A stretch of DNA of 64,000 bases from Gemmatimonadota bacterium (GCA_026705765.1 JAPPAB010000106.1:624-64623), one strand, 5' to 3'; positions 24,983-40,816 are shown, counted from the stretch's first letter. Made by a program: numbers and translations. Notes: a model not told the origin generated them from the sequence alone.

Positions 24983-26350
24983 CTAACTAACGACCACCGC
25001 GACCCGATGCATCGAATTGTTGAGATACCCCTTCAGATTCCAGGTAATGGCGTGCGGCTGACTTATGCCTTGTGAATCGGTCGCCCTTGCCCAGATCTCG
25101 TAATATCCCGCTTTGGGAAATGCGACCTCCGCCCGCCAGTTCTGCCACGCATACGCATTCACTGGCTCGTCGAGCTTCGCATCAATCCATGTTGCGCCAA
25201 AGTCGATTGACAGACGGACAGCGTCAACCTTCCGGTCTCCTGCCCAGGCATGTCCGCGCACTTCCAGAGACCGCCCTGCCATCTTGTGACCAGTAGCTGG
25301 ATTTGTAATTAACGACTTAACCTTCATGGCGTGGATAATCTCGAAGTCCTTCTCATCTACTTTTTCCCCAGGCACTATCATCCGATTGGGGATCCGATAA
25401 TCCATTCCTGTCATTTTGGGACCATCGTGAACCTGATCTCGCAACCAGATGCGGGTCAACCATTTCTGCGAGCAAGACCCCGACCAACCGGGAATGATCA
25501 GGCGCAACGGCGCACCATTCATGGGATGGATCGGTTTGCTGTTCTGGGCAAAAGCGATGAGGTTGTGCTCATCCATCGCCTTCTCAATCGGCACCCCGCG
25601 CGAGAGGGGAAGCCGTCCTTTCTCACCAGAAACGTGGGTATCGGCGCCCACATGCGCGGTATAAACCACATTGTCTTTCACCCCGGCAGCCTTGAGAACA
25701 TCGGATAGGCGAACACCAGTCCACTCGGAACACGCCACAGCGCCATAGGTCCATTGACTACCATCCGCAGGAGGCTCAAAAAAGGCGCGTCCATTGCCCC
25801 CGCACTCCAGTGTCAGTGCTCTATTAACAACTTCAAATCGCTGTTTGAGATCGTCAATGCTGAGAGTCAGGGGATTATCCACCAGACCATCAATCGTCAG
25901 TTTCCAGCCTACTGCATCCGTATTCTCAGGCGGAATGCCATTGTTGCGAATAAAATGTCTCTCAGTCGGCGTAATAGCGTCATCGAGCAAGTGCGGAGGC
26001 GTTTCGGCATTCAATGGATGGTCATTGAGCACGGTCAAGCCATCCTTACCCTGAATCATATCCTCCGAAGCGAGCACGACAGGAATAAAATGCGCCGGAA
26101 TATTGCGATGAAAAGGAATCGCCGCCCCGACCATTGCCCCCATCACCGCCAACCCAGCCTTCTTCAAAAACCCACGCCTGTCGGGATATGTCTCGCGGCC
26201 AAACAACAAGTAATCAGCCTCATCGGGGTTGCTCTGATAGAGATCGAATAAACCTTGTTCTTCAGTGTTTTTTTGCATTGTCGCTGCCTTTTCATCTGTA
26301 CACAGAATACCCTCTAATTCTTCAAAGCCTCCACTCAGAAATTTTTCCAA
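24983..26350 (-). CDS. Sulfite-oxidase-family molybdopterin oxidoreductase (SorA-like), Tat-exported
   Basis: DRRGFLKKAGLAVMGA Tat motif. LTLECGGNGR carries the Mo-ligand Cys of the sulfite oxidase family. C-terminal dimerisation-domain length. The true start may be the internal MQKNTEEQ. Confidence 0.7.
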   Translation of the reverse strand: MEKFLSGGFEELEGILCTDEKAATMQKNTEEQGLFDLYQSNPDEADYLLFGRETYPDRRGFLKKAGLAVMGAMVGAAIPFHRNIPAHFIPVVLASEDMIQGKDGLTVLNDHPLNAETPPHLLDDAITPTERHFIRNNGIPPENTDAVGWKLTIDGLVDNPLTLSIDDLKQRFEVVNRALTLECGGNGRAFFEPPADGSQWTYGAVACSEWTGVRLSDVLKAAGVKDNVVYTAHVGADTHVSGEKGRLPLSRGVPIEKAMDEHNLIAFAQNSKPIHPMNGAPLRLIIPGWSGSCSQKWLTRIWLRDQVHDGPKMTGMDYRIPNRMIVPGEKVDEKDFEIIHAMKVKSLITNPATGHKMAGRSLEVRGHAWAGDRKVDAVRLSIDFGATWIDAKLDEPVNAYAWQNWRAEVAFPKAGYYEIWARATDSQGISQPHAITWNLKGYLNNSMHRVAVVVS

Positions 26351-26380
26351 ATAAACCTTACTGTTGCAGAGATAGGCACA

Positions 26381-27214
26381 CTAAATGGTTTGAAACCACT
26401 GCTTATTGACAGTAACTTGTTCAACCAACTCAGTATTTACACCAAGCTGTAAGTCCTTCAACATCCCAGCAAGTGCATTACCGTCAATGAGATCCAGCGG
26501 CGGCGCACCATCGCGCTGTGCTTCAGTCCAGGCGTCTCGAGTGAACCTTCCCGTAGTTATCAATAAGCCCTTGTCGGCTCGGCCAACCATAGCCCCTCTA
26601 AAATCTCTAACTGTGGATGCCGTCACCGATCCAACATAACGTTTACACTGGAATATCACATGAAATGAAAGGAGGTTACCAAGTTTGACCACACCACGTC
26701 CATCAATACCACCGTCGCCAGCTTGCCCCGTGACCTCAACCTGAATAAAACCAGACTCCCGCAAGATGCGTTGACACAATCTTTCAAAGGCATCCGGCGA
26801 AATGCTCTGAACAACCTGGATAAGCTCATCCTCCCAACTCAAACTGTCCTTATCTTCCTCTTCAAGTTTTGCTTCGTCGCGTTCCGCTCTGGCTTGCTGG
26901 AAGAGTTTCTGCACGAATTGCCTGACTACTGTAGGGTCAACTGTCTCTGTTTGGTGTCCCTGCGACGTTAGTGCCCAGACACCGCGTGCTGAGTTCTCAA
27001 GTAGGCCGTAATTTTTCAGGTAATTTCTTGCCCATCCAAGACGGTAATTAAGCGTAGTTAGGTTGCCCTTATGTATGGTGTTTATATCTTCTTCCGACAA
27101 CCTGAGAATCTGAGCGACGCGATCCGACATCTCAGAGATAGAGCAAGAACCGCCCAGTTCGCGCAGGGCCTGTAATACGGGGTTGAACATCTTCTGGAAC
27201 TGTGGTAATGCCAT
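26381..27214 (-). CDS. mrr: Mrr-like type IV restriction endonuclease (Mrr_N winged helix plus PD-(D/E)xK catalytic domain)
   Basis: Start at MALPQFQKMF (AAAGGAGAA Shine-Dalgarno). C-terminal GQAGDGGIDGRGVVK...FQCKRY is the Mrr_cat signature. 36 bp downstream of the pAgo gene on the same strand. Confidence 0.75.
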   Translation of the reverse strand: MALPQFQKMFNPVLQALRELGGSCSISEMSDRVAQILRLSEEDINTIHKGNLTTLNYRLGWARNYLKNYGLLENSARGVWALTSQGHQTETVDPTVVRQFVQKLFQQARAERDEAKLEEEDKDSLSWEDELIQVVQSISPDAFERLCQRILRESGFIQVEVTGQAGDGGIDGRGVVKLGNLLSFHVIFQCKRYVGSVTASTVRDFRGAMVGRADKGLLITTGRFTRDAWTEAQRDGAPPLDLIDGNALAGMLKDLQLGVNTELVEQVTVNKQWFQTI

Positions 27215-27312
27215 GGATTCTCCTTTAATTTCCTGATTTGCTCTTGCTCTCAGGAATGCGCTTACCAGCCATCGCATAGTTGTCGGTGTAGGTCAGATAT
27301 AACTCTATTAAT

Positions 27313-28734
27313 TTACATAAAAAAACGAAATTGGTAGGGTGTCCGCCTTAGGCTTGGCATACGCTTGACCACCCGCGCGAGTACCTTCGCATAACCCATA
27401 GTAACCGGCAACGGGTCATACAGTGAGTCATTGTTCCAATTCATCTTTGAAAGCCCCAACACGGCACGTGCCGTGTCGTCCCACAACCCATGGCCAGCAT
27501 GACGCACCAACCTCAAGGGACGAGGAGTACTCCTGGAACCTTTAAAATAAGATCCTCTCTCACTGATATTTCTCACGTCACCATGTGTCCATAGAAGAGC
27601 ATCTCGGGGCCCAAGGTCAACCAGGGTTCCACGCGAAACTGGATAGGCAGCGGGATTCCCCTTAATACCACCTGCGGGCTCATCAATGCGCACACCGCGC
27701 CACCCCACATCTTCAACTACCTGCACGAGATCAATCGCCTCGCATAGGTGAAATGCCTCCATGCAACCTTTGACTTCATCTGCCTTGAACTCAGTGGTCT
27801 TATGCACCATAATCCGTCGAGGTAATCGCCCGGCGTGGCGTCGCCGATAGAGGTCGAGAGATCGGGACATTACCCGAAACATCTCAGTCCGTGATAGAAA
27901 GGGGTTATCACGATGCACTTCGACCTCATGGGCATTGTAGGCGATAAACTCCAAACCAGAACCCTCGGCATCGAACACCTGACTGCAGCATGTAACAAAA
28001 CGTGGATTGTTAGATTCCATTGGACGAACTGCGTATGAAATGCCGATATACGCTGTTTCTGAATCGGACTCCGCCAGCTTCCAAGGGACTCCGCCAGCCT
28101 TGACATAGAGCGCTAGGCCAATACGCCACATGACACTGGCTTGGCACGAGTATGTGAGGGCGCTGTCTTCCCTCACCAGTTGAATGGGTAATCCAAGGGT
28201 TGCCGTTGTTGCCTTCAGGTGATCATGAAGGTCGAAGTCTTCATCGGATACTCCGGCATAGCCAGGATTCCATCGCTGAGGGATGTAGATGAAAAGGACA
28301 TCAAACTTGCTCCTGTACGTCTGCAAACGCTGAATAGCTCGGACTAACCGATCAGCTAATACAATGTGCGGACGCGGCGAATTATTAAATTCGGTCTCAA
28401 GTTCCTGATCAAGTTCAATGCGGCAATCACTATCTGCCGCTCCCATATGCACACCAAAGACAGTCCGAAAACCCGGCCATTCGGGGAGATAATCCTTGCG
28501 TTCTCTCGGTATGTGCGTCGACTTAAGGCGCGTCATGAAGCTATATAGGTGGTTACTTTCCCCGGCGGGTGCCAAGGTCGCCACTCGGATTGGATCAGGT
28601 AATATGCCCGCGGAGTATGGGCCAAATCGCAATAGCCCACGCAATGGATGAATCTCACGGTCTGAAGTACGATCTGGATGGAAGATCAGGCTTGGCTCCG
28701 GTAGCCAGATGTGCGGGGCGATCTCGCTGTTCAT
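27313..28734 (-). CDS. Short prokaryotic Argonaute (MID-PIWI, catalytically inactive-looking PIWI)
   Basis: 473 aa. C-terminal PLPVTMGYAKVLARVVKR matches the Ago PIWI P-x-P-V-x-x-A...R motif. YIGISYAV sits where catalytic IGIDV is expected, so Asp is missing. Size and MID-PIWI-only architecture are typical of short pAgo. Confidence 0.75.
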   Translation of the reverse strand: MNSEIAPHIWLPEPSLIFHPDRTSDREIHPLRGLLRFGPYSAGILPDPIRVATLAPAGESNHLYSFMTRLKSTHIPRERKDYLPEWPGFRTVFGVHMGAADSDCRIELDQELETEFNNSPRPHIVLADRLVRAIQRLQTYRSKFDVLFIYIPQRWNPGYAGVSDEDFDLHDHLKATTATLGLPIQLVREDSALTYSCQASVMWRIGLALYVKAGGVPWKLAESDSETAYIGISYAVRPMESNNPRFVTCCSQVFDAEGSGLEFIAYNAHEVEVHRDNPFLSRTEMFRVMSRSLDLYRRRHAGRLPRRIMVHKTTEFKADEVKGCMEAFHLCEAIDLVQVVEDVGWRGVRIDEPAGGIKGNPAAYPVSRGTLVDLGPRDALLWTHGDVRNISERGSYFKGSRSTPRPLRLVRHAGHGLWDDTARAVLGLSKMNWNNDSLYDPLPVTMGYAKVLARVVKRMPSLRRTPYQFRFFM

Positions 28735-28829
28735 GATCCTACTCTCCGTGAGAATCCTGTAATAGGAGAAAGGCGATAGACCGCGTCTATACCATCGCCG
28801 ATATCCAGTGCCCGTAGATCGTTTTGAGG

Positions 28830-30473
28830 CTAGCCCAAGTGACGACTCCAGAACTCAACCAGATCGTTGAGTTGGCTGTTATAGCGTTTGACACTGCGTT
28901 CTCTACCGAAATCCGCTGAAATCATCTTGTTTTCTTGAGTGATACCATCGAATACGGTTCGTGGCTCTATCAGCAACCACAAGCGATCATCGGCCCAATC
29001 TAGGCGTATACCGATACCCTCGCGCCAGTGAAGCTCGGGGCTACCAGCAACTGTTCCAGTAAGCGTACCTACTAATTTCTCCAATTGTGTCCAGGTACTT
29101 GATTTTGGGTCGGTTGGGGCCAATAAGTCCGCTCTTCCGCGCCGTACAACCTCCAGACCGCGCTGACGTGCGATTGCACGAGTTAACGCTTCTCGAAGAA
29201 GACCTCGCTCGCTCGATTCATACCTTTGACGCTTGATTTCGAACGTATGAAGGTCAAAATCCGTAATGCCATGGGGCTCAAAAGCAGTGCGTACATCTGC
29301 ATCGGCACCAAATGCCAATACTCCGGCTTGGGAACGTGCAGCGATCACGTCGACGCCAGTGCGCTCTATCGCCTCTCGCACTTCGGCGGTGCCACCAATG
29401 TCACAGACGACGCGTCTACACACGCTCGGCAAACCAGTCACTGGCACAGCGTTGAAACGTACTACTGGCCAGCCCTGCCCGCCCGTTGGGCGTGGCGCTG
29501 CACTCCAGTGTCGGCGTTCTGAAGCAAAAGCGTCGAGCGTTGTAGTGTCGATGTCATCTATTTGGCGAATCAGATCCCGCAATACTTCGTCAAAGTTATC
29601 AATAGACACTATGCCCACTTCTATTCCCTTCTCATCTGCCTTGGCCAACAATTCACGAACGCGCGGCAACGGCTGACCTTCCCCGTGATGCAACCAAAAT
29701 AGCCCCGCCGGAAAGGCACCTGGCTGTTGAGTTGCTTCATCAAGAGCGTCCATAACTGAATCGTCACGACCACTATAGCCAACTACTACAAGTCCAAACC
29801 TACTACAGGAATCAATGAGAATATTTCTTAGATGTGTATCCTGGTGTCGCAGTTCTTCAGTGGTATTCTTGAGTCTCCGTGACTGAAAATCACCATGCAG
29901 CTTCACTTCCACCGGCCATCGCCCCTCATGAATTGCCTGCTCCCCTAATTCAGGCGCATCAAGGGCTACACTCGTCAATGAACCAGTTGTGTCATAAATC
30001 TTGGCGCAAGCGTCTGCCACCATGGCATCAAAATTCGTTGTCCATATCAGACGTGTACGATTGGCGCGCATCAGAGTTGCGAGAGCCAAGTGACCGTATG
30101 ATGGTTTTGCACCTGCTAGCTTTGCATTAATATAGGCACGCCGATCTCCTTCGGATGGATACACCTCTTCAAATAGTGCGGCATATTCGCCGGGATCCCC
30201 AGCACAAGGCAACCGCTTAAAAGAGTCAATGTAGGTCTGTAATTGCACCTGGATAGCCGGATTTGAGAGATCTGCCACAGATTGGCGCGATACCTTGCGC
30301 TGACTGACAAACAATTCCTGTTTGAATTGCCAGATCATGTCCGTCGCGGTAGGAAGACCAGCGGAGGCCGAGGCACCAGCACCAAGCAACCACATCAGAT
30401 TGGGCGAACGTATAGAGAAGCGTCGTGCGAAGTCGTCCGAGTTGATTTGAGGAAGTAATGACTTAGTATTCAT
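28830..30473 (-). CDS. SIR2-APAZ protein (NADase effector partner of short pAgo, SPARSA-type)
   Basis: 547 aa. N-terminal SIR2 signatures LLGAGASASAGLPTATD, WTTNFDAMV and VKLHGD. A roughly 250-aa C-terminal region of APAZ size. Encoded immediately upstream of the short pAgo gene with a 96-bp gap on the same strand. Confidence 0.8.
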   Translation of the reverse strand: MNTKSLLPQINSDDFARRFSIRSPNLMWLLGAGASASAGLPTATDMIWQFKQELFVSQRKVSRQSVADLSNPAIQVQLQTYIDSFKRLPCAGDPGEYAALFEEVYPSEGDRRAYINAKLAGAKPSYGHLALATLMRANRTRLIWTTNFDAMVADACAKIYDTTGSLTSVALDAPELGEQAIHEGRWPVEVKLHGDFQSRRLKNTTEELRHQDTHLRNILIDSCSRFGLVVVGYSGRDDSVMDALDEATQQPGAFPAGLFWLHHGEGQPLPRVRELLAKADEKGIEVGIVSIDNFDEVLRDLIRQIDDIDTTTLDAFASERRHWSAAPRPTGGQGWPVVRFNAVPVTGLPSVCRRVVCDIGGTAEVREAIERTGVDVIAARSQAGVLAFGADADVRTAFEPHGITDFDLHTFEIKRQRYESSERGLLREALTRAIARQRGLEVVRRGRADLLAPTDPKSSTWTQLEKLVGTLTGTVAGSPELHWREGIGIRLDWADDRLWLLIEPRTVFDGITQENKMISADFGRERSVKRYNSQLNDLVEFWSRHLG

Positions 30474-30555
30474 TGGTTTTTCAAGACCCTTTTCCCGATG
30501 ACGTAAAGCGTATATCCCACTCCGTTAATGAGAAATCTCATTGTTTGTCACTTTA

Positions 30556-30852
30556 TCATACCGTCGGCTGTAGTTCATAGCGCTTGACCTTGATCTGATC
30601 TTCATTTTTGCGCGCTTGCACCAGATTATAGGCAGTCTGACGGCGCAACCAGAACTCGGCGTTGGACCATCCAGCCTTCTCCAACCGAATAGCCATCTCC
30701 GGTGAAATAGCCGCATGACCGTTCAGTACACGTGAAAGCGTGTGACGGGCTACGCCCAACACCTTCGCTGCTTCGGTAATATTCAGACCGAGGGGCTCCA
30801 GACAGTTCGCTTTAATACTGAGACCCGGATGAGGTGGATTCTTCATAGCCAT
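30556..30852 (-). CDS. higA: HigA-family HTH (XRE) antitoxin
   Basis: [36 protein letters not shown] helix-turn-helix. Follows higB by 16 bp. Confidence 0.8.
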
Positions 30853-30867
30853 GGCGTTTATCCCTTG

Positions 30868-31146
30868 TTAGTGATAATCAACCAAATCGACATCGTACAC
30901 GTCACCTTCTTCAAAGCGAAAGATGATACGCCAGTTGGCGGAAATCGAAATACTCCAAAATCCTTTCCGGTCGCCCTTCAGTGGATGAAGCCGATACCCT
31001 GGAAAATTGAGGTCCGAGGGTTTGTTAGCCTCGTCTAAGTCCGCCAAAACGAGTGCGATCCGTTCTGCCTGATCAGCACGCACTCTGCTGGGATCTCCGC
31101 GCTCATACAATCGCTTGAGGCCCCGATGTCGAAACGTCTGAATCAT
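30868..31146 (-). CDS. higB: HigB-family (RelE/ParE superfamily) toxin
   Basis: 92 aa. FRHRGLKRLYERGD ... GYRLHPLKGDRKGFWSISISANWRIIFRF matches the plasmid-maintenance killer HigB family. Confidence 0.8.
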   Translation of the reverse strand: MIQTFRHRGLKRLYERGDPSRVRADQAERIALVLADLDEANKPSDLNFPGYRLHPLKGDRKGFWSISISANWRIIFRFEEGDVYDVDLVDYH

Positions 31147-31255
31147 AAAAAAACGTACCGTATATCGGTACGCGTGTCAATAACGAAATCAATACATGCC
31201 TGAATCAGGGCCGTGCTTACCACCAAAACATATCATATTGGCAAAAATATAATAA

Positions 31256-31669
31256 ATGATTACTTTATCAAGTAGTAAAGGAGAAACAATGGCTGGTGAA
31301 AATTATATTGCCGCGAATATCACTCGGCTGAGGCTGGACCGACAATTGACCCAGGAGGAACTCGCCCGAAAAGCGGGCATCTCACTGATGGCACTCAGAA
31401 ATATCGAGCGAGGAACTGTCGTCCCGCGTGCCCGTACCCTCACCGATCTTGGAAAAGCACTACGGGTTCCGATTCGCGACCTCGTGACACCTGTGCAGTC
31501 TCTCGAGACCGTGCGATTCCGACCTCAGTCACAGATACAGGAAGATCGCCTTTTGCGACTCGTGCAACAAGCACTTGAGCAGGAGCACATCTCACTCGGA
31601 CGTGCCGCTGAGATTCTGGGGCTAAGTCGTGAGGAAATGAGAAGGTATGCACGTGAGTGGGCGAGGTAG
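31256..31669 (+). CDS. XRE-family HTH transcriptional regulator
   Basis: LTQEELARKAGISLMALRNIERG helix-turn-helix. The likely true start is MAGENY at 31289. Confidence 0.65.
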   Translation: MITLSSSKGETMAGENYIAANITRLRLDRQLTQEELARKAGISLMALRNIERGTVVPRARTLTDLGKALRVPIRDLVTPVQSLETVRFRPQSQIQEDRLLRLVQQALEQEHISLGRAAEILGLSREEMRRYAREWAR

Positions 31670-31733
31670 ATGGCGATGGCTCAGACCGCGCGGACACAGA
31701 TGTGCCCATTGACTACCGCGATATGGACATTCA

Positions 31734-32054
31734 CTATTGGTTCAAGCTTTTCTGGATGGTTCCCAGGTCTCGATTGAGGTCTTCGAGATCGTATTGGGCT
31801 GGTACTTTTCTGGCACGCGCATAGTCCATCATCTCCCACAAGGAAACACCAGCATCGCGAGCCGCGCGTGCAAGTGTGAGCTTTCCATCCCCGTATAGAC
31901 GGGCGTAGTGCTCCAACTTCCATTGCTGGACTGCTTTTGCCAGCAAGCGCCTCACAGTAGTCGAGCGATCAGACTGCTCGACATCCTCAATGAATTCCAA
32001 TTCACGTACTAATTCCAGGGGGAGCCTGATGCCTACCATACGTTCCTTTTTCAT
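31734..32054 (-). CDS. UPF0175-like small protein (antitoxin-family), orphan
   Basis: C-terminal ARDAGVSLWEMMDYARARKVPAQYDLEDLNRDL resembles UPF0175. No DUF3368/PIN partner adjacent. Confidence 0.45.
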   Translation of the reverse strand: MKKERMVGIRLPLELVRELEFIEDVEQSDRSTTVRRLLAKAVQQWKLEHYARLYGDGKLTLARAARDAGVSLWEMMDYARARKVPAQYDLEDLNRDLGTIQKSLNQ

Positions 32055-34958: not shown

Positions 34959-35351
34959 TCAGACTCGCTCTTCCGCCCAGCGGACGACGGTTTCAGCGAT
35001 CTCCACTGCATCCAGGTATTCCTGTTCCTCAACCGGATTGGACAAGCCTGGATAGCGTGTGATCACGGCGTATGGGGTCAATCCCTCTGCCTTGAGAACG
35101 CTCTCCGGGATGATTTCTCCCACTTCTTCGAGCAGCGACAACAAATGAGCCAGATCATGCACGTAAGGAAACTCAATGTCGCACTTGATCAGCATGGCCT
35201 TAACAGCTTTCTCGGCGGCCTGCTGAGCCTCGAAGCACAAGTCTTCCAGATAAGCATCGGGCACGCGGTTCTTCGCCAACGCGAGATTGCTTCTGGCGCG
35301 GTTCAACCACTCTCGCGGATCATCGGCCGGAAAACGCTCAGGAGGCTTCAT
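34959..35351 (-). CDS. HEPN-domain protein
   Basis: 130 aa. All-helical. Pairs with the upstream minimal nucleotidyltransferase; 14-nt overlap. Confidence 0.7.
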   Translation of the reverse strand: MKPPERFPADDPREWLNRARSNLALAKNRVPDAYLEDLCFEAQQAAEKAVKAMLIKCDIEFPYVHDLAHLLSLLEEVGEIIPESVLKAEGLTPYAVITRYPGLSNPVEEQEYLDAVEIAETVVRWAEERV

Positions 35352-35664
35352 AAACTATCCGCCCTTCCTTTAGGGCTGGCTTAATGATCAGCGCATGGCT
35401 ATCCCTGAAGCGTTCCACATCTTCAGATGACACTACGACCGCATCAACCGCAACTCCGACCCCATGCAACTTCCGGTAAATTTGCGCCATGAGATTGCGT
35501 GCATCTCCTCCATCTTTGACGATGAGCAGATCGATGTCACTATTCCGCGTCATTGCGCCTCGCACGGCGGATCCAAAGAGTATAATTCGCTGCGGCTGTG
35601 CCACTTCCACGACACGCTTAATGATATCGTCCAACGTATTTTGGTCAAGCACCTGTTTCTTCAT
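35338..35664 (-). CDS. Minimal nucleotidyltransferase (MNT) domain protein, HEPN/MNT module partner
   Basis: ILFGSAVRGAMTRNSDIDLLIV (GS...DxD NTase motif). 108 aa. Confidence 0.75.
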   Translation of the reverse strand: MKKQVLDQNTLDDIIKRVVEVAQPQRIILFGSAVRGAMTRNSDIDLLIVKDGGDARNLMAQIYRKLHGVGVAVDAVVVSSEDVERFRDSHALIIKPALKEGRIVYEAS

Positions 35665-35722: not shown

Positions 35723-38700
35723 TCAGACTGCTTGCATCAGTTCCACCAGAACTTTTGCTAGATCGTCACGTTCCACCATCTCCTGTTCCCTTTTGTCCAA
35801 CTTTCCTGTTTTACCCACCCTCTCGTAACCCCTCTCCTCTGTTGCTTCGCCCAGAAGGGTGAAATACTGCATGCTGTCTTCCAAGTAATACATGATTGTC
35901 TCCACCCACGTCGTCGGGTGTACACTTATTTCTGTTGGATAAGGTATCTTGTCTCCGATGTACTTCTGCACTATGGACTCTAATGCCCTCCGCACGTCCT
36001 TATACCCCGTGTATTCTTCTGGGTCCTGTGCCAGTTCGTCTACTAGCACTCGTATCCGGCTTCCTAGATAATCCAAGTACTGCCGCTGGGTCTCGACCTT
36101 CACACCATCTGGCACGAGAACCCACAGGGCGTCGAGTTCCCCAAGTTCACCTTTCGGTTTCCACCACACCTTGCCTTCCATATCGTACTTTTTTTTGTTC
36201 CAGCTATCGTCGTTGTCGATCTCAGAGCGCGGACTTTCGCCGGCTCCGGTATCCTCTCGCTGCACAAATTTAAGCTCTCCTTGTTCGCTATCAGTTTCAC
36301 GCGGTTTTTGGCGATTATTAGACGGCTCAGGAGTGCGTTCAAAAGGTGGTTTAGTTGATGCTCTCTCGCGTTTCTTTATTTTTGTCTTTTCCGCTTTACC
36401 ACCTCCCGATGCACTCGCTGGGAAAATTCTCCTTTCTTCTAACATGGGCCACAGCTTCTCCAGCGCGATCTCCCTATTTGCATAAAAGGCCGATTCTCGG
36501 ACCCGAAAGAACTCCCAACCACAACGCTCCAGTTGCCGCTGCCTCTCCATGTCCTTATCATACTGATCTGGACCGTGCCAGGTATCACCATCGCATTCGA
36601 CCGCCAATCGCGCTTGCCCACCTTCGATGGCAAGGTCAATTCTCCTGCCAGCAAACTCAACTTGAGGTTGAACGTTATATCCTTTTCGTACGAGTTCCAG
36701 CGTAACGTCAATCTCGAACCAGCTATCGAAGGGGTCAGGTGGGTTAATGACCTTTCGATTGTCCTGTGCGGCCCGACGTTCGAGTTCCTCCCGGTCTATG
36801 CCAGCAATCGCTTGCGGTTTCGTATTCTCAAAGAATTTGAGCAATTCTTGACGCAGATCGGATGTGCTCAGATCGTTGACGGTTACAGAATGAAAAAGAA
36901 ACATCTGATCTCGGGCACGGCTTGCCGCAACGTTGAACCGCCGCTCATCTGCCGGACTTGCAAGTGGGCCAATTCTCTCATTAGATGCCGCGACCATGGA
37001 CAGGAATATAACGTCACGCTCATCGCCTTGGAAACTATATGAGTTTCCGCAAACGAGATGCCGCCGCTCCATCTCTTCTGCGCCTATTCGTTCAAGTAAC
37101 TTTCCCTCAATCAACCTTGCCTGTGCTTCTCCCTGGAGAACAACAACGCCCATAGTTTTTTCGGAATATCGCCCGTCATCACATAATTCCAATATCTTCT
37201 CGACAATGGCGTCGGCCTCCGGTCGGTTCACCACCCCATTCCCAACTCCTTCGCGATACCCGCTTTCGATAAAGACGCGCTCCAGCGGGTTCAAGCGCTC
37301 AGGCCCATATTGCCGCAACGGGATTAACGGCGTGTCAGAATAGCAGAGACCATTGCTGAAACGAATAATTTCTGGCATGCAGCGGAAGTGCTCACGCAGA
37401 GTGATATGCCCTTCGTCATATAGCCGTTTTCCATGGTCGAACAGGCTGCTTTGAACGGCAAAAGAGTCTTTGAAGTCAAAATCATATAGTAAGTCGTTCA
37501 TGAGACGATGTACAGCATCAAGAGGTAAGCCAACAGCATCGGGACTGATCTGCTTGTCATCCCCAACAATGAGTACTTTTTTGCCCAGATAAAAGAGTGG
37601 CAATGCCTCTGGTCCGCATTGCGATGCTTCGTCAATAATGACCACATCGAATATACCGGGAGCAGGGTCCACCGTATCCCAGATGCGGTGTAGTGGCATG
37701 ACCCAGGCCGGGACTGCCTCACGGCATTTGTTCAAGTGCTGCTGTGCATCCCGTCGATGCTTTGGAGCGTGCCTCCCGGTTCCTTTCCCAAGACGACCCA
37801 TTGCTTGCTGCCAAGCTACCATGTGGCCGCGATGGCTACTTTCGAGTCGCGATAAGCAAAACGACCAAGCATGAAGTTCTGCAAGTTGTGCAATGACTCT
37901 GTTAATTTCATCCTCAATCTGGTGCGAACGTATAGCAAGGCTTGGGGCATCTTCCTTCTTTATATATTCATCGATCCAGAACCTTGCTTGAGCCCAATGC
38001 CAGGCATTCTCTACCTGTTGAACGCGCTCGTCCCAGCAAGACTTAGTGCAGCTTTGCTCCAATTCTACGGTGAAATTCGGCACAAATTGGCGCAGCTTCT
38101 CAATGTCTGCATCCAACTTTCTCATCTTCTGACATTCATCCTTTAGACTTTGTGTCGCCTTCGCGACCTGTTTATATCCTTCGATATCTCGATTGCGAAT
38201 CGCCTGAAGCAAGTCGCTTACAACGGAATGGGCATTAGTCCTCCCGGCAAGAGACCCTATTGGTTCTTCAATCTTCAGAATCGCCTTTTCAGCCAATTGC
38301 TTGAGCGCGAACCTGCAAGAGGCAATCAATTGATCAATCTGAGCCTCGTCATTCCAATCAGGTGTTCGGAGAGCGGGGCACTGTCTCAGAGACTCAATGC
38401 AATCATCACGTCGTTTCCCAAGTGACAGAGCATCGGCAAGAGCGTCGCACATTTCCTTGAGCTTCTGGAATTGTAAGGCATAAGTGCCTTCTTGTTCCTC
38501 ATATCCCACCCAGACTTCCCAGGCCTTTTCAAGCTCAATAAGCACGTGAAAAAAATCAGCCGCAACTGACAAATGGTGGAGATTGGAGCAGAAACTACCA
38601 TCCACTTGAACAGTTTTGACTATCTTGGGACGGAACGGCCACCAGCCGAGTTTTCCGCCATTTTCCAAATGCCTTTTCAGATTGCTGACATCTTCATATA

Positions 38701-40816
38701 GCGTCCTGATGTCGGCCTCGTCTGGAAATTTGATGTTCGTTTCACGAACTACGGAAAGGCGCAGCTCTATAGCGTCTATTGCCCCTTGCGTCACAAGATG
38801 ACGTTCAAGCCACAGTGATTCATTACCACTGGCGATATCGCGCAAGGCGTTGCTCATCCACGAATATGGCGATATTGATAACTGACGCCTCAAATCGCTG
38901 AAAGCGGTAAGAGAATCGTGAATTTTTCTTACGCTTTCAGCATCGATATCCGATAGCGCATCTGCATCTTGTTCGTTGCCCTCAGTGGACGATAGTTCAT
39001 GTTCGCGGTGCGCTCGTCTCTCTGAATCAACAAGCTCGGCAAACTGCGCGGCAGACGATAGTTCGTCAGGCCATACAAGATCCAACTCTTGCCGTTTTTC
39101 CAAGCTGAAGTGACGCAACTTCCTCAATAGGTCTCGCAATTTATCTGCGGTGATCGGACATGTCTTGTACAAAGGGACGGTGTCGGTGAACCAGCTATAG
39201 ACGCTGCGATCCTGATTGACTGACTTAGCTATACGCGCTGCGGTACCTCGGTAGGTCCCTTCTGCAACGGATTGAGAATGCGTTTCGGATTCTCTGATGT
39301 CGCGTAGGCGTCTATCGACTTTGGCTTTCTCTTTTCGCAACTCTTGTAGCTTGTTTTCGAGCGTCTTGATTTCGCTTTTTGCCCGGTCCTCGTTCCAATC
39401 TTCGCTCTTGCGAAGAATTCCGCTGACGCTCAATTCGAGAGATTTCCCTTCTTCCGGTCCCGAACCCAGTAGATTGATGTATAGCGGATGTAACTCTTCT
39501 GGCACAAGTCCGTCGAGAACCTGGAGCGCCCGCGGTGTCTTGGCGGTGATAAGCGTTCTCTGCCCTGTCGCGAGCAAGTGGCAGATGAGATTCGCAATCG
39601 TGTGGGATTTTCCAGTGCCCGGCGGTCCCTGTACGAGGACGCCACTGGTAGTTCGTATCTTATCTACGATGCGACGTTGTTCTTCATTCCAGGGTTTTGG
39701 AAAGAACAATTCACCATCGAAACTACTGTTCGTTTCGCCGGGGTCCTGCTCTGAAACATCACTATCACTGTTCGTCTGAATCTCAGCAAGGTCCTTAAAT
39801 TGAGAAGGAAAATCCTCTCCATCCTCTATTTTTCCCTTAATTCGCTTCAATGTCTCGGTGAGGCCCCTTACGGATCGTTTTCTCAATATAAGAGCCGGTG
39901 CATATTCAACGACTGGTTTGTCCAATGTCAGGTTATTTGTCGCTTGCAGCGTGCTATTGTATTCGCCTTGAGAACTGATTGAATGGACGAGGGCCTGAAG
40001 AACACCTTCGACGCAGCTTCTGTTCCAGGGATCATCGTCCGCAGCCTCAGATAGCGAAGCCTTTGCGTTTTCTTCGGCGCGTTCGGGTTGTTCCTCAATG
40101 TCCAACATATCCAGTTCAGGTCGAACGTTTGCGCCATCCGGCAGTGGCCGTACAGTGAACTTGCCTAATTTCGCTTCAAATTCGAGAGCGGCGTTTGCGA
40201 CAATCAGGTGACGGCGGACTCGCTGACCGTTCGGCGTTTGCCAGATAAGCAGACCGAGCGCGAGGACAAGTTCGTACTCCTCACTAAGCCGAAGTTGCTC
40301 CTGATGGATAACAAAGAGCGTTGTGTAAACGCTATGTATGCTTTCCCAGTCGTTATGCTCTTCCATCCATGGCAGCCAATGTTCTTCGACGTATTTATCC
40401 CAAGCCTCCTGAACATCGGGATAATCTTCAAGGCGTTCGATATAAAAAATAAATTCAGGCTGATCGGTCCCCTCCTGCCAATCGAGATTTTTTACCTGCT
40501 TCGTTATTTCAGGCAGGAGATCGGGAATATCGTTTTTGTCTCGAAGGGACTCGTCTTCAACCCAGTCTTCGCAGATAGAAGGAACGCCAGGCAACAGCGG
40601 TTCCTTCTGGTTCTGGATTTCTATCCACACGTCAGAATCGAAATCTTCGTCACGTCCCCACGCCTGTGTGAAACACCCTTTAAGCTTTGGAATATCCTTT
40701 AACCAAAGCACATTTTGATACTCGTCAACGTCCCTTGTGGTCCTGGTACGCAGCACTGCAAGCCGGGTCAGATATTCGACAAGGCGCATAACTTTGTCTT
40801 TGTAGTTATTTTCCAA
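35723..40816 (-). CDS. 1697-aa multidomain protein: DUF4011-like N-terminal region, SF1 Upf1/DNA2-like helicase (AAA_11/AAA_12) and C-terminal Vsr/DUF559 PD-(D/E)xK endonuclease domain
   Basis: Walker A [18 protein letters not shown]. Walker B VIIDEASQ. Motif-VI-like [13 protein letters not shown]. C-terminal [47 protein letters not shown] is the DUF559/Vsr-like nuclease fold. Long coiled-coil linker regions. Confidence 0.8.
   Translation of the reverse strand: [1697 protein letters not shown]

What the first reader, a model, noticed from the sequence alone, without database searches (positions are those of the whole stretch)
26381..30473. Short pAgo + SIR2-APAZ (SPARSA-type) operon with an Mrr type IV nuclease fused into the same transcription unit
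Gene order on the minus strand is SIR2-APAZ (547 aa; GAGAS..., TTNFD and KLHGD SIR2 signatures plus a C-terminal APAZ-sized region), a 96-bp gap, then a short Argonaute (473 aa). The Argonaute carries the PIWI C-terminal PLPVTMGYAKVLARVVKR motif but has YIGISYAV where catalytic IGIDV is expected, so it is an inactive MID-PIWI. After a 36-bp gap comes an Mrr-like endonuclease (DGGIDG...QCKRY). The first two genes match the described SPARSA architecture, in which guide-directed target recognition by pAgo activates SIR2 NAD+ depletion. The tightly appended Mrr suggests either an operonic defence stack or a functional coupling not described for SPARSA.
Basis: partly seen in the sequence, partly recalled or inferred. 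Interest (0 to 1): 0.8.

Follow-up and report, generated by a model that had tools for sequence, protein, structure and literature searches.

The report
SPARSA defence pair beside unrelated Mrr
This is an ordinary two-gene Argonaute/SIR2 (SPARSA) anti-phage system sitting next to an independent Mrr restriction enzyme in a defence-gene hotspot. The two are not a combined system, and the SIR2 gene carries a premature stop codon.

Summary
The three minus-strand genes exist and are correctly identified: SIR2-APAZ, a short inactive Argonaute about 50% identical to the solved Geobacter GsAgo, and an Mrr_N+Mrr_cat type IV nuclease. The claimed coupling to Mrr fails.

- **Co-occurrence:** of 84 related SPARSA loci from many phyla, this Mrr follows pAgo only in one ~93%-identical sister genome.
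- **Mrr without SPARSA:** a strain whose Mrr is 99% identical has the same neighbourhood, but an HEC-01 ATPase/DUF4276 cassette sits where SPARSA is.
- **SPARSA without Mrr:** the closest pAgo relatives (88-95%) carry HicAB-DUF4062 where mrr is.
- **Breakpoints:** they define separate cassettes, SPARSA at 27298-30520 and mrr at 26298-27297.

Both "tight gaps" are artefacts. The real mrr start is 27214, which gives a 98-bp spacer that is itself a recombination junction. The 95-bp SIR2-pAgo gap comes from an amber codon (TAG where relatives have CAA). It removes a conserved 32-residue APAZ tail and breaks the 4-bp overlap found in 67 of 79 relatives. This SPARSA copy may therefore be impaired. 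In the sister genome an IS element disrupts pAgo.

Verdict: a known kind of system in a defence island. Interest is low.

The parts
28830..30473 (-). SIR2-APAZ gene, 547 aa as encoded here: an N-terminal SIR2 NADase domain followed by an APAZ domain that lacks its C-terminal end
   Evidence: PADLOC Aga_SIR2-PNTD1-PNTD2 at E=1e-182. Pfam SIR2_2. GsSir2 (8in8_B) at E=6e-72, aligned to Gs residues 5-545 of 587. Catalytic N147 and H193 correspond to GsSir2 N142 and H186 and are invariant in 44 homologues.
28830..28832 (-). Premature amber stop (TAG) at codon 548 of SIR2-APAZ
   Evidence: Relatives L053 and L081 (~93% nucleotide identity) have CAA (Gln) at this codon. TAG is a normal stop in this genome: mrr ends in TAG, as do 12 of 40 long ORFs.
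28731..28829 (-). Orphaned 3' end of the SIR2-APAZ reading frame: 32 still-open codons (PQNDLRALDIGDGIDAVYRLSPITGFSRRVGS) plus a TGA that overlaps the pAgo ATG.
   Evidence: In 67 of 79 related loci the SIR2-APAZ ORF continues about 33 aa further and overlaps the pAgo start by 4 bp. The tail is conserved across the clade. All 120 best homologues are at least 552 aa, most commonly 580. In the AF2 model of a 90%-identical full-length homologue the tail forms three beta-strands at pLDDT 74-87.
27313..28734 (-). Short prokaryotic Argonaute (MID + inactive PIWI), 473 aa, intact
Evidence: PADLOC pAgo_I at E=2.9e-200. GsAgo 8in8_C at E=1.4e-116 over residues 3-473. The 5'-phosphate pocket residues H170, K174 and Q185 correspond to Gs H166, K170 and Q181 and are invariant in 121 sequences.
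27298..30520 (-). SPARSA cassette as delimited by comparison with related genomes: 47 bp of 5' leader, both genes, and 15 bp after the pAgo stop
   Evidence: The 5' edge, 30520/30521, comes from comparison with L088, which lacks SPARSA. The 3' edge, 27297-27301, is the same in L081, L053, L089, L090, L091 and L092.
27215..27312 (-). pAgo-mrr spacer (98 bp), a recombination junction. It consists of 15 bp of SPARSA cassette end, about 71 bp shared only with L053, and 12 bp carrying the mrr ribosome-binding site shared by all mrr-bearing relatives.
   Evidence: No intrinsic terminator or sigma-70-like promoter was found, and there is no significant RNA structure (z=-0.17). L053 carries an extra ~90 bp here.
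26381..27214 (-). mrr: stand-alone type IV (modification-dependent) restriction endonuclease, 277 aa, with an Mrr_N winged-helix domain and an Mrr_cat PD-(D/E)XK domain
   Evidence: Pfam Mrr_cat at E=1.7e-29 (full-length domain) and Mrr_N at E=9e-21. PADLOC mREase_IV and PDC-S02. The GDGGIDG...FQCK motif is present. 117 of the 120 best homologues are 270-297 aa with the same architecture.
26298..27297 (-). mrr cassette (~1.0 kb) as delimited by comparison with related genomes
   Evidence: In L089-L092, homology to the window stops at 27298-27301. It resumes at 26297 in L090-L092 and at 26118 in L089. HicAB-DUF4062 (plus IS elements in L090) occupies the interval.

Best explanation
The locus holds two independent defence modules that lie side by side in a variable defence-island hotspot of a Candidatus Latescibacterota-like chromosome. 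The hotspot sits between a higBA toxin-antitoxin pair and a molybdopterin oxidoreductase gene.

**Module 1: SPARSA.** This is a canonical clade S1B SPARSA system. By homology to Geobacter GsSir2/Ago (inferred, not tested here), the short Argonaute binds a 5'-phosphorylated guide in its MID pocket. When it recognises invader DNA, the complex oligomerises and the SIR2 domain hydrolyses NAD+, causing abortive infection. In this copy an amber codon removes the last 32 conserved residues of APAZ and uncouples pAgo translation from SIR2-APAZ. The system is therefore probably weakened or dead (inferred).

**Module 2: Mrr.** This is a resident stand-alone Mrr type IV restriction endonuclease that would cut modified foreign DNA on its own (inferred from family membership).

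**Why they are adjacent.** Cassette exchange placed them next to each other. They may still be co-transcribed by read-through, because no terminator is visible, but neither needs the other.
For: **Identity of the parts:**

**Catalytic and guide-binding residues are kept:** SIR2 N147 and H193; MID H170, K174 and Q185.

**The two modules occur independently**
- In 80 genome loci with pAgo at 65-94% identity, SIR2-APAZ lies directly upstream in 78. The other two contigs end before that position. Mrr is found only in L053.
- A Pfam scan of the 77 downstream genes finds Mrr_cat in 1 of 77. The rest are a mixture including ChrB, DUF1156, reverse transcriptases, AbiJ, SAVED and IS elements.
- A family HMM built from Mrr homologues gives the same answer across 84 SPARSA loci.
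- L088 has a 99%-identical Mrr and the same flanking genes, but HEC-01A/B sits in place of SPARSA, ending 11 bp before mrr.
- L081 has about 2.8 kb of other genes between pAgo and mrr.
- L089-L092 (pAgo 88-95% identical) have HicAB-DUF4062 in place of mrr. L090 is demonstrably the same chromosomal site.
- Breakpoints are reproducible: 30520/30521, 27297/27298, 27226/27227 and 26297/26298.
- More distant Mrr homologues (62-77% identity) have no SPARSA nearby.
- Koopal et al. 2022 state that the APAZ protein is the only protein specifically associated with short pAgos (PMC9097488).

**Truncation of SIR2-APAZ:**. The GsSir2 APAZ domain is modelled to residue 583, whereas the window protein aligns only to residue 545.

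**Independent decay in the sister genome:** an IS5-family element with 19-bp terminal inverted repeats interrupts pAgo in L053.
Against: - No terminator or recognisable promoter separates pAgo from mrr, so co-transcription in this strain is possible.
- SPARSA and this Mrr lineage are found in the same island in three related genomes (window, L053, L081). A loose ecological or functional complementarity therefore cannot be excluded.
- The functional effect of losing the 32-residue tail is inferred from conservation and a monomer model, not measured.
- The TAG could in principle be an assembly error.
Confidence: 0.85

Rival explanations
1. A three-gene SPARSA-Mrr system. Mrr would be a functional partner, for example a nuclease effector activated by guide-directed pAgo target recognition, or a generator of guides, co-evolving with SIR2-APAZ/pAgo.
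For: - The genes are adjacent on the same strand with no predicted terminator.
- There is precedent for Mrr-type PD-(D/E)XK domains in short-pAgo systems: Mrr-TIR-APAZ fusions and DUF4365/DREN-APAZ.
- PADLOC gives a weak match of the Mrr catalytic core to Aga_REase-TIR-PNTD (E~6e-4).
Against: - Mrr follows pAgo in 1 of 77 readable related loci, and that one is a ~93%-identical sister genome.
- Mrr persists at 99% identity without SPARSA.
- SPARSA persists at the same site without Mrr.
- Cassette breakpoints fall exactly between the two genes.
- This Mrr has an Mrr_N DNA-binding domain and no APAZ, like thousands of stand-alone homologues.
- In relatives, mrr lies 11 bp after a different system, HEC-01B.
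Confidence: 0.03
2. An operonic defence stack. The modules are mechanistically independent, but mrr is transcribed as part of a higBA-SPARSA-mrr polycistron, giving co-regulated layered defence: restriction first, abortive infection second.
For: - No terminator-like hairpin lies between pAgo and mrr or after higA.
- The only sigma-70-like promoter hit on this strand in 25.8-31.8 kb lies upstream of higB.
- mrr keeps just its own ribosome-binding site, with 12 bp of conserved upstream sequence. In relatives it lies 11 bp behind another gene, which suggests it habitually depends on upstream transcription.
Against: - The promoter and terminator scans are crude, and promoter consensus in Latescibacterota is unknown.
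- The 71-bp junction segment could carry a promoter.
- Nearly every gene from 20.5 to 60 kb is on the minus strand, so co-orientation says little.
- There are no expression data.
Confidence: 0.4
3. The amber codon is a sequencing or assembly error, or a minority allele. The real organism would then encode a full-length 580-aa SIR2-APAZ, and SPARSA would be fully functional.
For: - The reading frame downstream of the TAG is completely intact and still ends in the ATGA overlap. The lesion is therefore very recent or not real.
Against: - TAG differs from the CAA of both close relatives at two positions, which is unusual for a random base-call error.
- Loss of costly abortive-infection systems is common, and the sister genome has independently lost pAgo to an IS insertion.
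Confidence: 0.15

Closest known systems
Geobacter sulfurreducens GsSir2/Ago (SPARSA, short pAgo clade S1B; PDB 8in8, 8jkz, 8k87 and others)
   Same: - Two-gene SIR2-APAZ then short-pAgo order.
- pAgo is 473 aa and aligns end to end (E=1.4e-116).
- SIR2 Asn/His dyad is conserved (N147, H193), as are the HGD loop, the MID 5'-phosphate pocket H/K/Q and the C-terminal RFFM.
   Different: - SIR2-APAZ here stops at the equivalent of Gs residue ~545, because of an amber codon. It lacks the last ordered part of APAZ and the 4-bp overlap with pAgo.
- The MID residues that read the first guide bases differ: R188, Y195 and S200 versus Gs N184, R190 and N195. These are clade-wide differences, so the 5'-end preference may differ.
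- The host is a Latescibacterota-like bacterium.
Stand-alone Mrr-family type IV restriction endonucleases (E. coli Mrr type; Pfam Mrr_N + Mrr_cat; PADLOC mREase_IV)
   Same: - Same two-domain architecture and length (277 aa).
- Intact D...QxK-type motif.
- More than 8000 homologues at E<=1e-20, with the best 120 sharing this architecture, in unrelated genomic contexts.
   Different: Nothing distinctive was found. Its substrate specificity is unknown.
Short-pAgo systems with a PD-(D/E)XK nuclease effector: Mrr-TIR-APAZ SPARTA variants and DUF4365/DREN-APAZ SPARDA
   Same: An Mrr-superfamily nuclease domain is encoded next to a short pAgo.
   Different: In those systems the nuclease is fused to the APAZ protein that binds pAgo. 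Here the nuclease is a separate protein with an Mrr_N domain and no APAZ, and it is not conserved with the pAgo.
Defence islands or hotspots with exchangeable cassettes (Makarova et al. 2009 noted the link between pAgo neighbourhoods and phage-resistance genes)
   Same: The same chromosomal slot holds SPARSA, HEC-01, Mrr, HicAB-DUF4062 or IS elements in different strains. It is flanked by toxin-antitoxin pairs and a large helicase-nuclease gene.
   Different: None. This is a textbook example.

Membership tests
SPARSA (short pAgo + SIR2-APAZ, clade S1B) | Short Argonaute consisting only of MID and PIWI domains | tested here: met
   473 aa. Full-length alignment to the solved GsAgo 8in8_C (E=1.4e-116). 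PADLOC pAgo_I at E=2.9e-200.
SPARSA (short pAgo + SIR2-APAZ, clade S1B) | PIWI lacks the catalytic DEDX tetrad | tested here: inconclusive
GsAgo has the same motif. The other three tetrad positions were not aligned to an active Ago here. Koopal 2022 states that all short pAgos lack the tetrad.
SPARSA (short pAgo + SIR2-APAZ, clade S1B) | MID pocket residues that bind the guide 5'-phosphate | tested here: met
   H170, K174 and Q185 correspond to GsAgo H166, K170 and Q181. They are invariant in 121 sequences.
SPARSA (short pAgo + SIR2-APAZ, clade S1B) | SIR2 NADase domain with the catalytic Asn-His dyad | tested here: met
   N147 and H193 correspond to GsSir2 N142 and H186. Both columns are invariant in 44 homologues.
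SPARSA (short pAgo + SIR2-APAZ, clade S1B) | Complete APAZ domain on the SIR2 protein | tested here: not met
   An amber codon at position 548 removes 32 conserved residues. All 120 best homologues retain them. The tail is predicted as three beta-strands at pLDDT 74-87. The Gs APAZ domain is modelled to residue 583. The gene is clearly of this family but is truncated.
SPARSA (short pAgo + SIR2-APAZ, clade S1B) | SIR2-APAZ gene immediately upstream of pAgo in one operon | tested here: met
   Adjacent and co-directional. The same order occurs in all 78 related loci where the upstream region is readable. The usual 4-bp stop/start overlap, seen in 67 of 79 loci, is lost here because of the early stop.
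SPARSA (short pAgo + SIR2-APAZ, clade S1B) | Guide/target-dependent NAD+ depletion and protection against phage or plasmid | not testable with these tools
   Requires biochemistry or in vivo assays.
Mrr-family type IV restriction endonuclease | Mrr_N winged-helix domain plus Mrr_cat PD-(D/E)XK domain with an intact catalytic motif | tested here: met
   Pfam Mrr_N at E=9e-21 and Mrr_cat at E=1.7e-29 covering profile positions 2-115 of 115. The GDGGIDG...FQCK motif is present. PADLOC mREase_IV at E=1e-26.
Mrr-family type IV restriction endonuclease | Cleavage dependent on DNA modification | not testable with these tools
   Requires enzymology.
   Mrr follows pAgo in 1 of 77 downstream genes. One of 80 loci by tblastn. 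Two of 84 SPARSA loci by family HMM, one of them non-adjacent. Presence and absence are decoupled in L088 and in L089-L092. Breakpoints fall between the genes.
Nuclease-APAZ short pAgo systems (Mrr-TIR-APAZ, SPARDA) | Nuclease domain fused to an APAZ domain | tested here: not met
   The Mrr protein has only Mrr_N and Mrr_cat. PADLOC matches to Aga_REase-TIR-PNTD models cover only residues 157-229, at E~6e-4.

The most novel reading that the evidence does not exclude
mrr may have lost its former upstream partner (HEC-01) and now depend on read-through from the higBA-SPARSA transcript. Restriction and Argonaute-triggered NAD+ depletion would then be co-regulated by the HigA antitoxin as one layered unit. 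In addition, the amber codon in SIR2-APAZ could act as a leaky 'safety catch', with low-level read-through keeping a toxic abortive-infection system at sub-lethal dosage. None of this is excluded by the data, and none of it is supported beyond the absence of a visible terminator.
Probability: 0.05. Interest if true: 0.4.

Novelty: new member of a known kind. Interest (0 to 1): 0.15.

Why it matters
The finding matters little as a new mechanism, because SPARSA and Mrr are both well described and are not coupled here.

Its modest value is as a clean natural example of defence-island dynamics.
- The same chromosomal slot in closely related Latescibacterota-like genomes holds SPARSA, HEC-01, Mrr or HicAB-DUF4062, with base-pair-reproducible breakpoints.
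- Two sister genomes show independent inactivation of SPARSA: a nonsense mutation in SIR2-APAZ in one and an IS insertion in pAgo in the other. This fits the idea that abortive-infection systems are costly and short-lived.

It also shows that longest-ORF spacing and same-strand adjacency are weak evidence for operon membership in a genome where nearly all genes share one strand.

Tried and rejected
- **Terminator, promoter and RNA structure.** I looked in both spacers and after mrr. Nothing was significant: the consensus scan gave fewer hits than shuffles, fold z-scores were -0.17, +0.25 and -0.60, and there were no Rfam hits in 25.0-32.5 kb. Transcription-unit boundaries therefore cannot be settled computationally.\n- **Repeats flanking the SPARSA cassette.** A search for att-like sites, terminal inverted repeats or target duplications found only short chance matches. 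One malformed repeat call (65) and two malformed paper queries (35, 46) gave nothing.\n- **TAG as a sense codon.** Rejected. mrr and 12 of 40 long ORFs end in TAG.\n- **Separate translation of the 32-codon tail.** Rejected. The segment has no in-frame ATG, GTG or TTG.\n- **Divergent Mrr genes missed by tblastn.** I built a family HMM and scanned all ORFs of 92 loci. The only extra hit was an unrelated Mrr_cat-TIR fusion in L049.\n- **C-terminal inhibitory peptide.** I checked the literature for one in SIR2-APAZ, as in SPARTA. One paper states that SPARSA lacks it (PMC11452484), so the truncation is not read as loss of auto-inhibition.\n- **Structure prediction of pAgo.** Not run, because a full-length match to a solved structure (about 50% identity) already answers the MID-PIWI question.

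Full report
**1. Observation**

The three minus-strand ORFs are present at the stated coordinates: 28830-30473 (547 aa), 27313-28734 (473 aa) and 26381-27277 (298 aa as the longest ORF). All quoted motifs are present.

Profile searches identify the proteins without ambiguity.
- The 547-aa protein matches PADLOC Aga_SIR2-PNTD1-PNTD2 (SIR2-APAZ) at E=1e-182.
- The 473-aa protein matches PADLOC class I pAgo at E=2.9e-200.
- Pfam gives SIR2_2, a sub-threshold Piwi hit, and Mrr_N plus Mrr_cat.
- Against solved structures, the Argonaute aligns end to end with Geobacter sulfurreducens GsAgo (8in8_C, E=1.4e-116).
- The SIR2 protein aligns with GsSir2 (E=6e-72).

- The 473-aa protein is a MID-PIWI short Argonaute.
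- The SIR2 catalytic dyad is present. N147 and H193 correspond to GsSir2 N142 and H186, whose alanine mutants lose NADase activity (PMC10781750; mapping). Both columns are invariant in 44 homologues.
- The MID 5'-phosphate pocket (H170, K174, Q185, corresponding to Gs H166, K170, Q181) is invariant in 121 homologues.
I did not align this position to an active Argonaute.

**2. The two gaps are not what they seemed**

*The pAgo-mrr gap*
- The real mrr start is the ATG at 27214, preceded by an AAAGGAG ribosome-binding site.
- 117 of the 120 best homologues are 270-297 aa; the other three are shorter fragments.
- In the sister genome L053 the 21-codon upstream extension contains an in-frame TAA.
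- The pAgo-mrr spacer is therefore 98 bp, not 35-36.

*The SIR2-pAgo gap*
- In 67 of 79 related loci the SIR2-APAZ ORF runs about 33 codons further and overlaps the pAgo start codon by 4 bp (ATGA or GTGA).
- The window has TAG at codon 548 (28830-28832), where the two ~93%-identical relatives have CAA.
- Downstream, the frame stays open for 32 codons and still ends in the ATGA overlap.
- That tail is conserved across phyla, with consensus lrAL.igdGvDAvF.l...TaFS.R.
- All 120 best SIR2-APAZ homologues are at least 552 aa, most commonly 580, and none lacks the tail.
- An AlphaFold2 model of a 90%-identical full-length homologue places three beta-strands in the tail at pLDDT 74-87, directly after the helix where the window protein ends.
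- The GsSir2 APAZ domain is modelled to residue 583, while the window protein aligns only to residue 545.
- TAG is an ordinary stop in this genome.

The "96-bp gap" is therefore a nonsense mutation that truncates APAZ and removes the translational coupling with pAgo. Whether the 547-aa product still works is inferred, not shown. I put the chance that it is impaired at about 60%.

**3. Is Mrr part of the system?**

*Survey of pAgo relatives*
- A scan of one genome per species returned 80 loci with pAgo at 65-94% identity. They come from Acidobacteriota, Planctomycetota, Chloroflexota, Proteobacteria, Actinobacteria and other phyla.
- SIR2-APAZ lies directly upstream in all 78 loci where that region is readable.
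- A homologue of this Mrr occurs in only one locus, L053.
- The 77 readable genes downstream of pAgo are heterogeneous. Mrr_cat appears once, alongside ChrB, DUF1156, reverse transcriptases, AbiJ, SAVED, UvrD-like helicases and IS transposases.
- A family HMM built from 118 Mrr homologues gave the same answer across all held loci. The only extra hit is an unrelated Mrr_cat-TIR fusion in L049.

*L053 is a sister genome, not independent evidence*
- L053 is a Candidatus Latescibacterota MAG that is syntenic with the window at about 93% nucleotide identity.

*Survey of Mrr relatives*

| Locus | Similarity to window | What lies at the site |
|---|---|---|
| L088 | Mrr 99% | Same flanking genes on both sides. 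Between higA and mrr sits HEC-01A ATPase + HEC-01B/DUF4276 instead of SPARSA, ending 11 bp before mrr |
| L081 | Mrr 85% | SPARSA, then UPF0175, a HigA-like gene and HEC-01 (about 2.8 kb), then mrr |
| L089-L092 | pAgo 88-95% | HicA-HicB-DUF4062 after pAgo, plus four transposase genes in L090. No mrr. In L090 the site is demonstrably the same, between higBA and the Mo-oxidoreductase/dapF genes |
| More distant Mrr homologues | Mrr 62-77% | No SPARSA nearby |

*Breakpoints*
- Nucleotide alignments give reproducible breakpoints at 30520/30521, 27297/27298 (seen in six loci), 27226/27227 and 26297/26298.
- SPARSA (27298-30520) and mrr (26298-27297) are therefore separate cassettes that can each be exchanged.
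- The 98-bp spacer between them is itself a recombination junction.
- This agrees with the published statement that the APAZ protein is the only protein specifically associated with short pAgos (PMC9097488). It also agrees with the old observation that pAgo genes sit among phage-resistance genes (PMC2743648).

**4. Transcription**

- No intrinsic terminator, sigma-70-like promoter or significant RNA structure lies between pAgo and mrr.
- The only promoter-like hit on this strand lies upstream of higB.
- Read-through co-transcription is therefore possible; I put it at about 40%.
- The scans are crude, and nearly every gene from 20.5 to 60 kb is on the minus strand. Co-orientation carries little information here.

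**5. Mechanism**

*By homology (inferred)*
- pAgo loads 5'-phosphorylated guides.
- Target DNA recognition drives oligomerisation and SIR2 NAD+ hydrolysis, producing abortive infection (PMC10781750, PMC11452484).
- Mrr independently cleaves modified DNA.

*Shown here*
- The residues required for these activities are present.
- APAZ is truncated.
- The modules are evolutionarily independent.
- The sister genome's pAgo is interrupted by an IS5-family element with 19-bp perfect terminal inverted repeats. That is a second, independent SPARSA inactivation in this lineage.

**6. Verdict**

The SPARSA identification is right and the Mrr coupling is not. This is a new member of a known kind of system, probably a decaying copy, sitting in a defence-island hotspot. 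Interest is low.

Noticed in passing
window 28731-28832 (minus strand): An amber codon truncates SIR2-APAZ before a conserved 32-residue C-terminal segment. The frame downstream is still intact and ends in the ancestral ATGA overlap with pAgo, so the lesion is very recent.
   Followed up: yes
L053 7063-8003 (corresponds to window ~28357): In the ~93%-identical sister genome, the pAgo gene is interrupted by a ~940-bp IS5-family element. It has 19-bp perfect terminal inverted repeats and two ORFs (DUF4096 and DDE_Tnp_1). mrr next to it stays intact.
   Followed up: yes
L088 8179-9989 (replaces window 27227-30520): A strain with a 99%-identical Mrr carries a PADLOC HEC-01 candidate system (AAA_15/21 ATPase + DUF4276) exactly where SPARSA sits in the window. 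It ends 11 bp before mrr. L081 has the same 11-bp link, so HEC-01B-mrr may be the older arrangement.
   Followed up: partly
window 35723-40816 (minus strand): A 1697-aa protein with AAA_11/AAA_12 helicase domains and an MTES_1575/DUF559 restriction-endonuclease-like domain (PADLOC PDC-S37, Mko- and Hhe-like). The whole segment 34941-40839 is absent from L088 and L053, so this is another variable defence cassette.
   Followed up: partly
window 34959-35664 (minus strand): A HEPN protein and a nucleotidyltransferase (MNT-type) form a toxin-antitoxin-like pair directly beside the large helicase-nuclease gene.
   Followed up: no
window 30556-31173 (minus strand): A higB/higA toxin-antitoxin pair lies immediately upstream of SPARSA. 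A perfect 8-bp-stem palindrome (31153-31173) followed by a T-run abuts the higB start. It was scored as terminator-like but is more likely an operator. L053 lacks higB.
   Followed up: no
window 31256-32054: Two more small regulator or antitoxin-like genes: an HTH_3 + UPF0175 fusion on the plus strand and a UPF0175 protein on the minus strand. Their order relative to SPARSA differs in L081 and L090.
   Followed up: no
window pAgo residues 188, 195, 200 (within 27313-28734): The MID residues that contact the first guide bases in GsAgo (N184, R190, N195) are R, Y and S here and throughout this pAgo clade (at least 118 of 121 sequences). The 5'-end nucleotide preference may therefore differ from the 5'-AU bias of GsSir2/Ago.
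   Followed up: partly
L049 7067-7969: In a Gemmatimonadales MAG, an Mrr_cat-TIR fusion protein (301 aa, no APAZ) lies two genes downstream of the SPARSA pAgo. It is a different nuclease-TIR defence gene in the same kind of island.
   Followed up: partly
L088 14057-15963 (insertion relative to window ~23154): A second AAA_15 ATPase (PADLOC NsnB and HEC-03B-like, 453 aa) plus a 175-aa ORF is inserted between the PhyH and epimerase genes in L088. It is absent from the window, so this is another small variable site.
   Followed up: no
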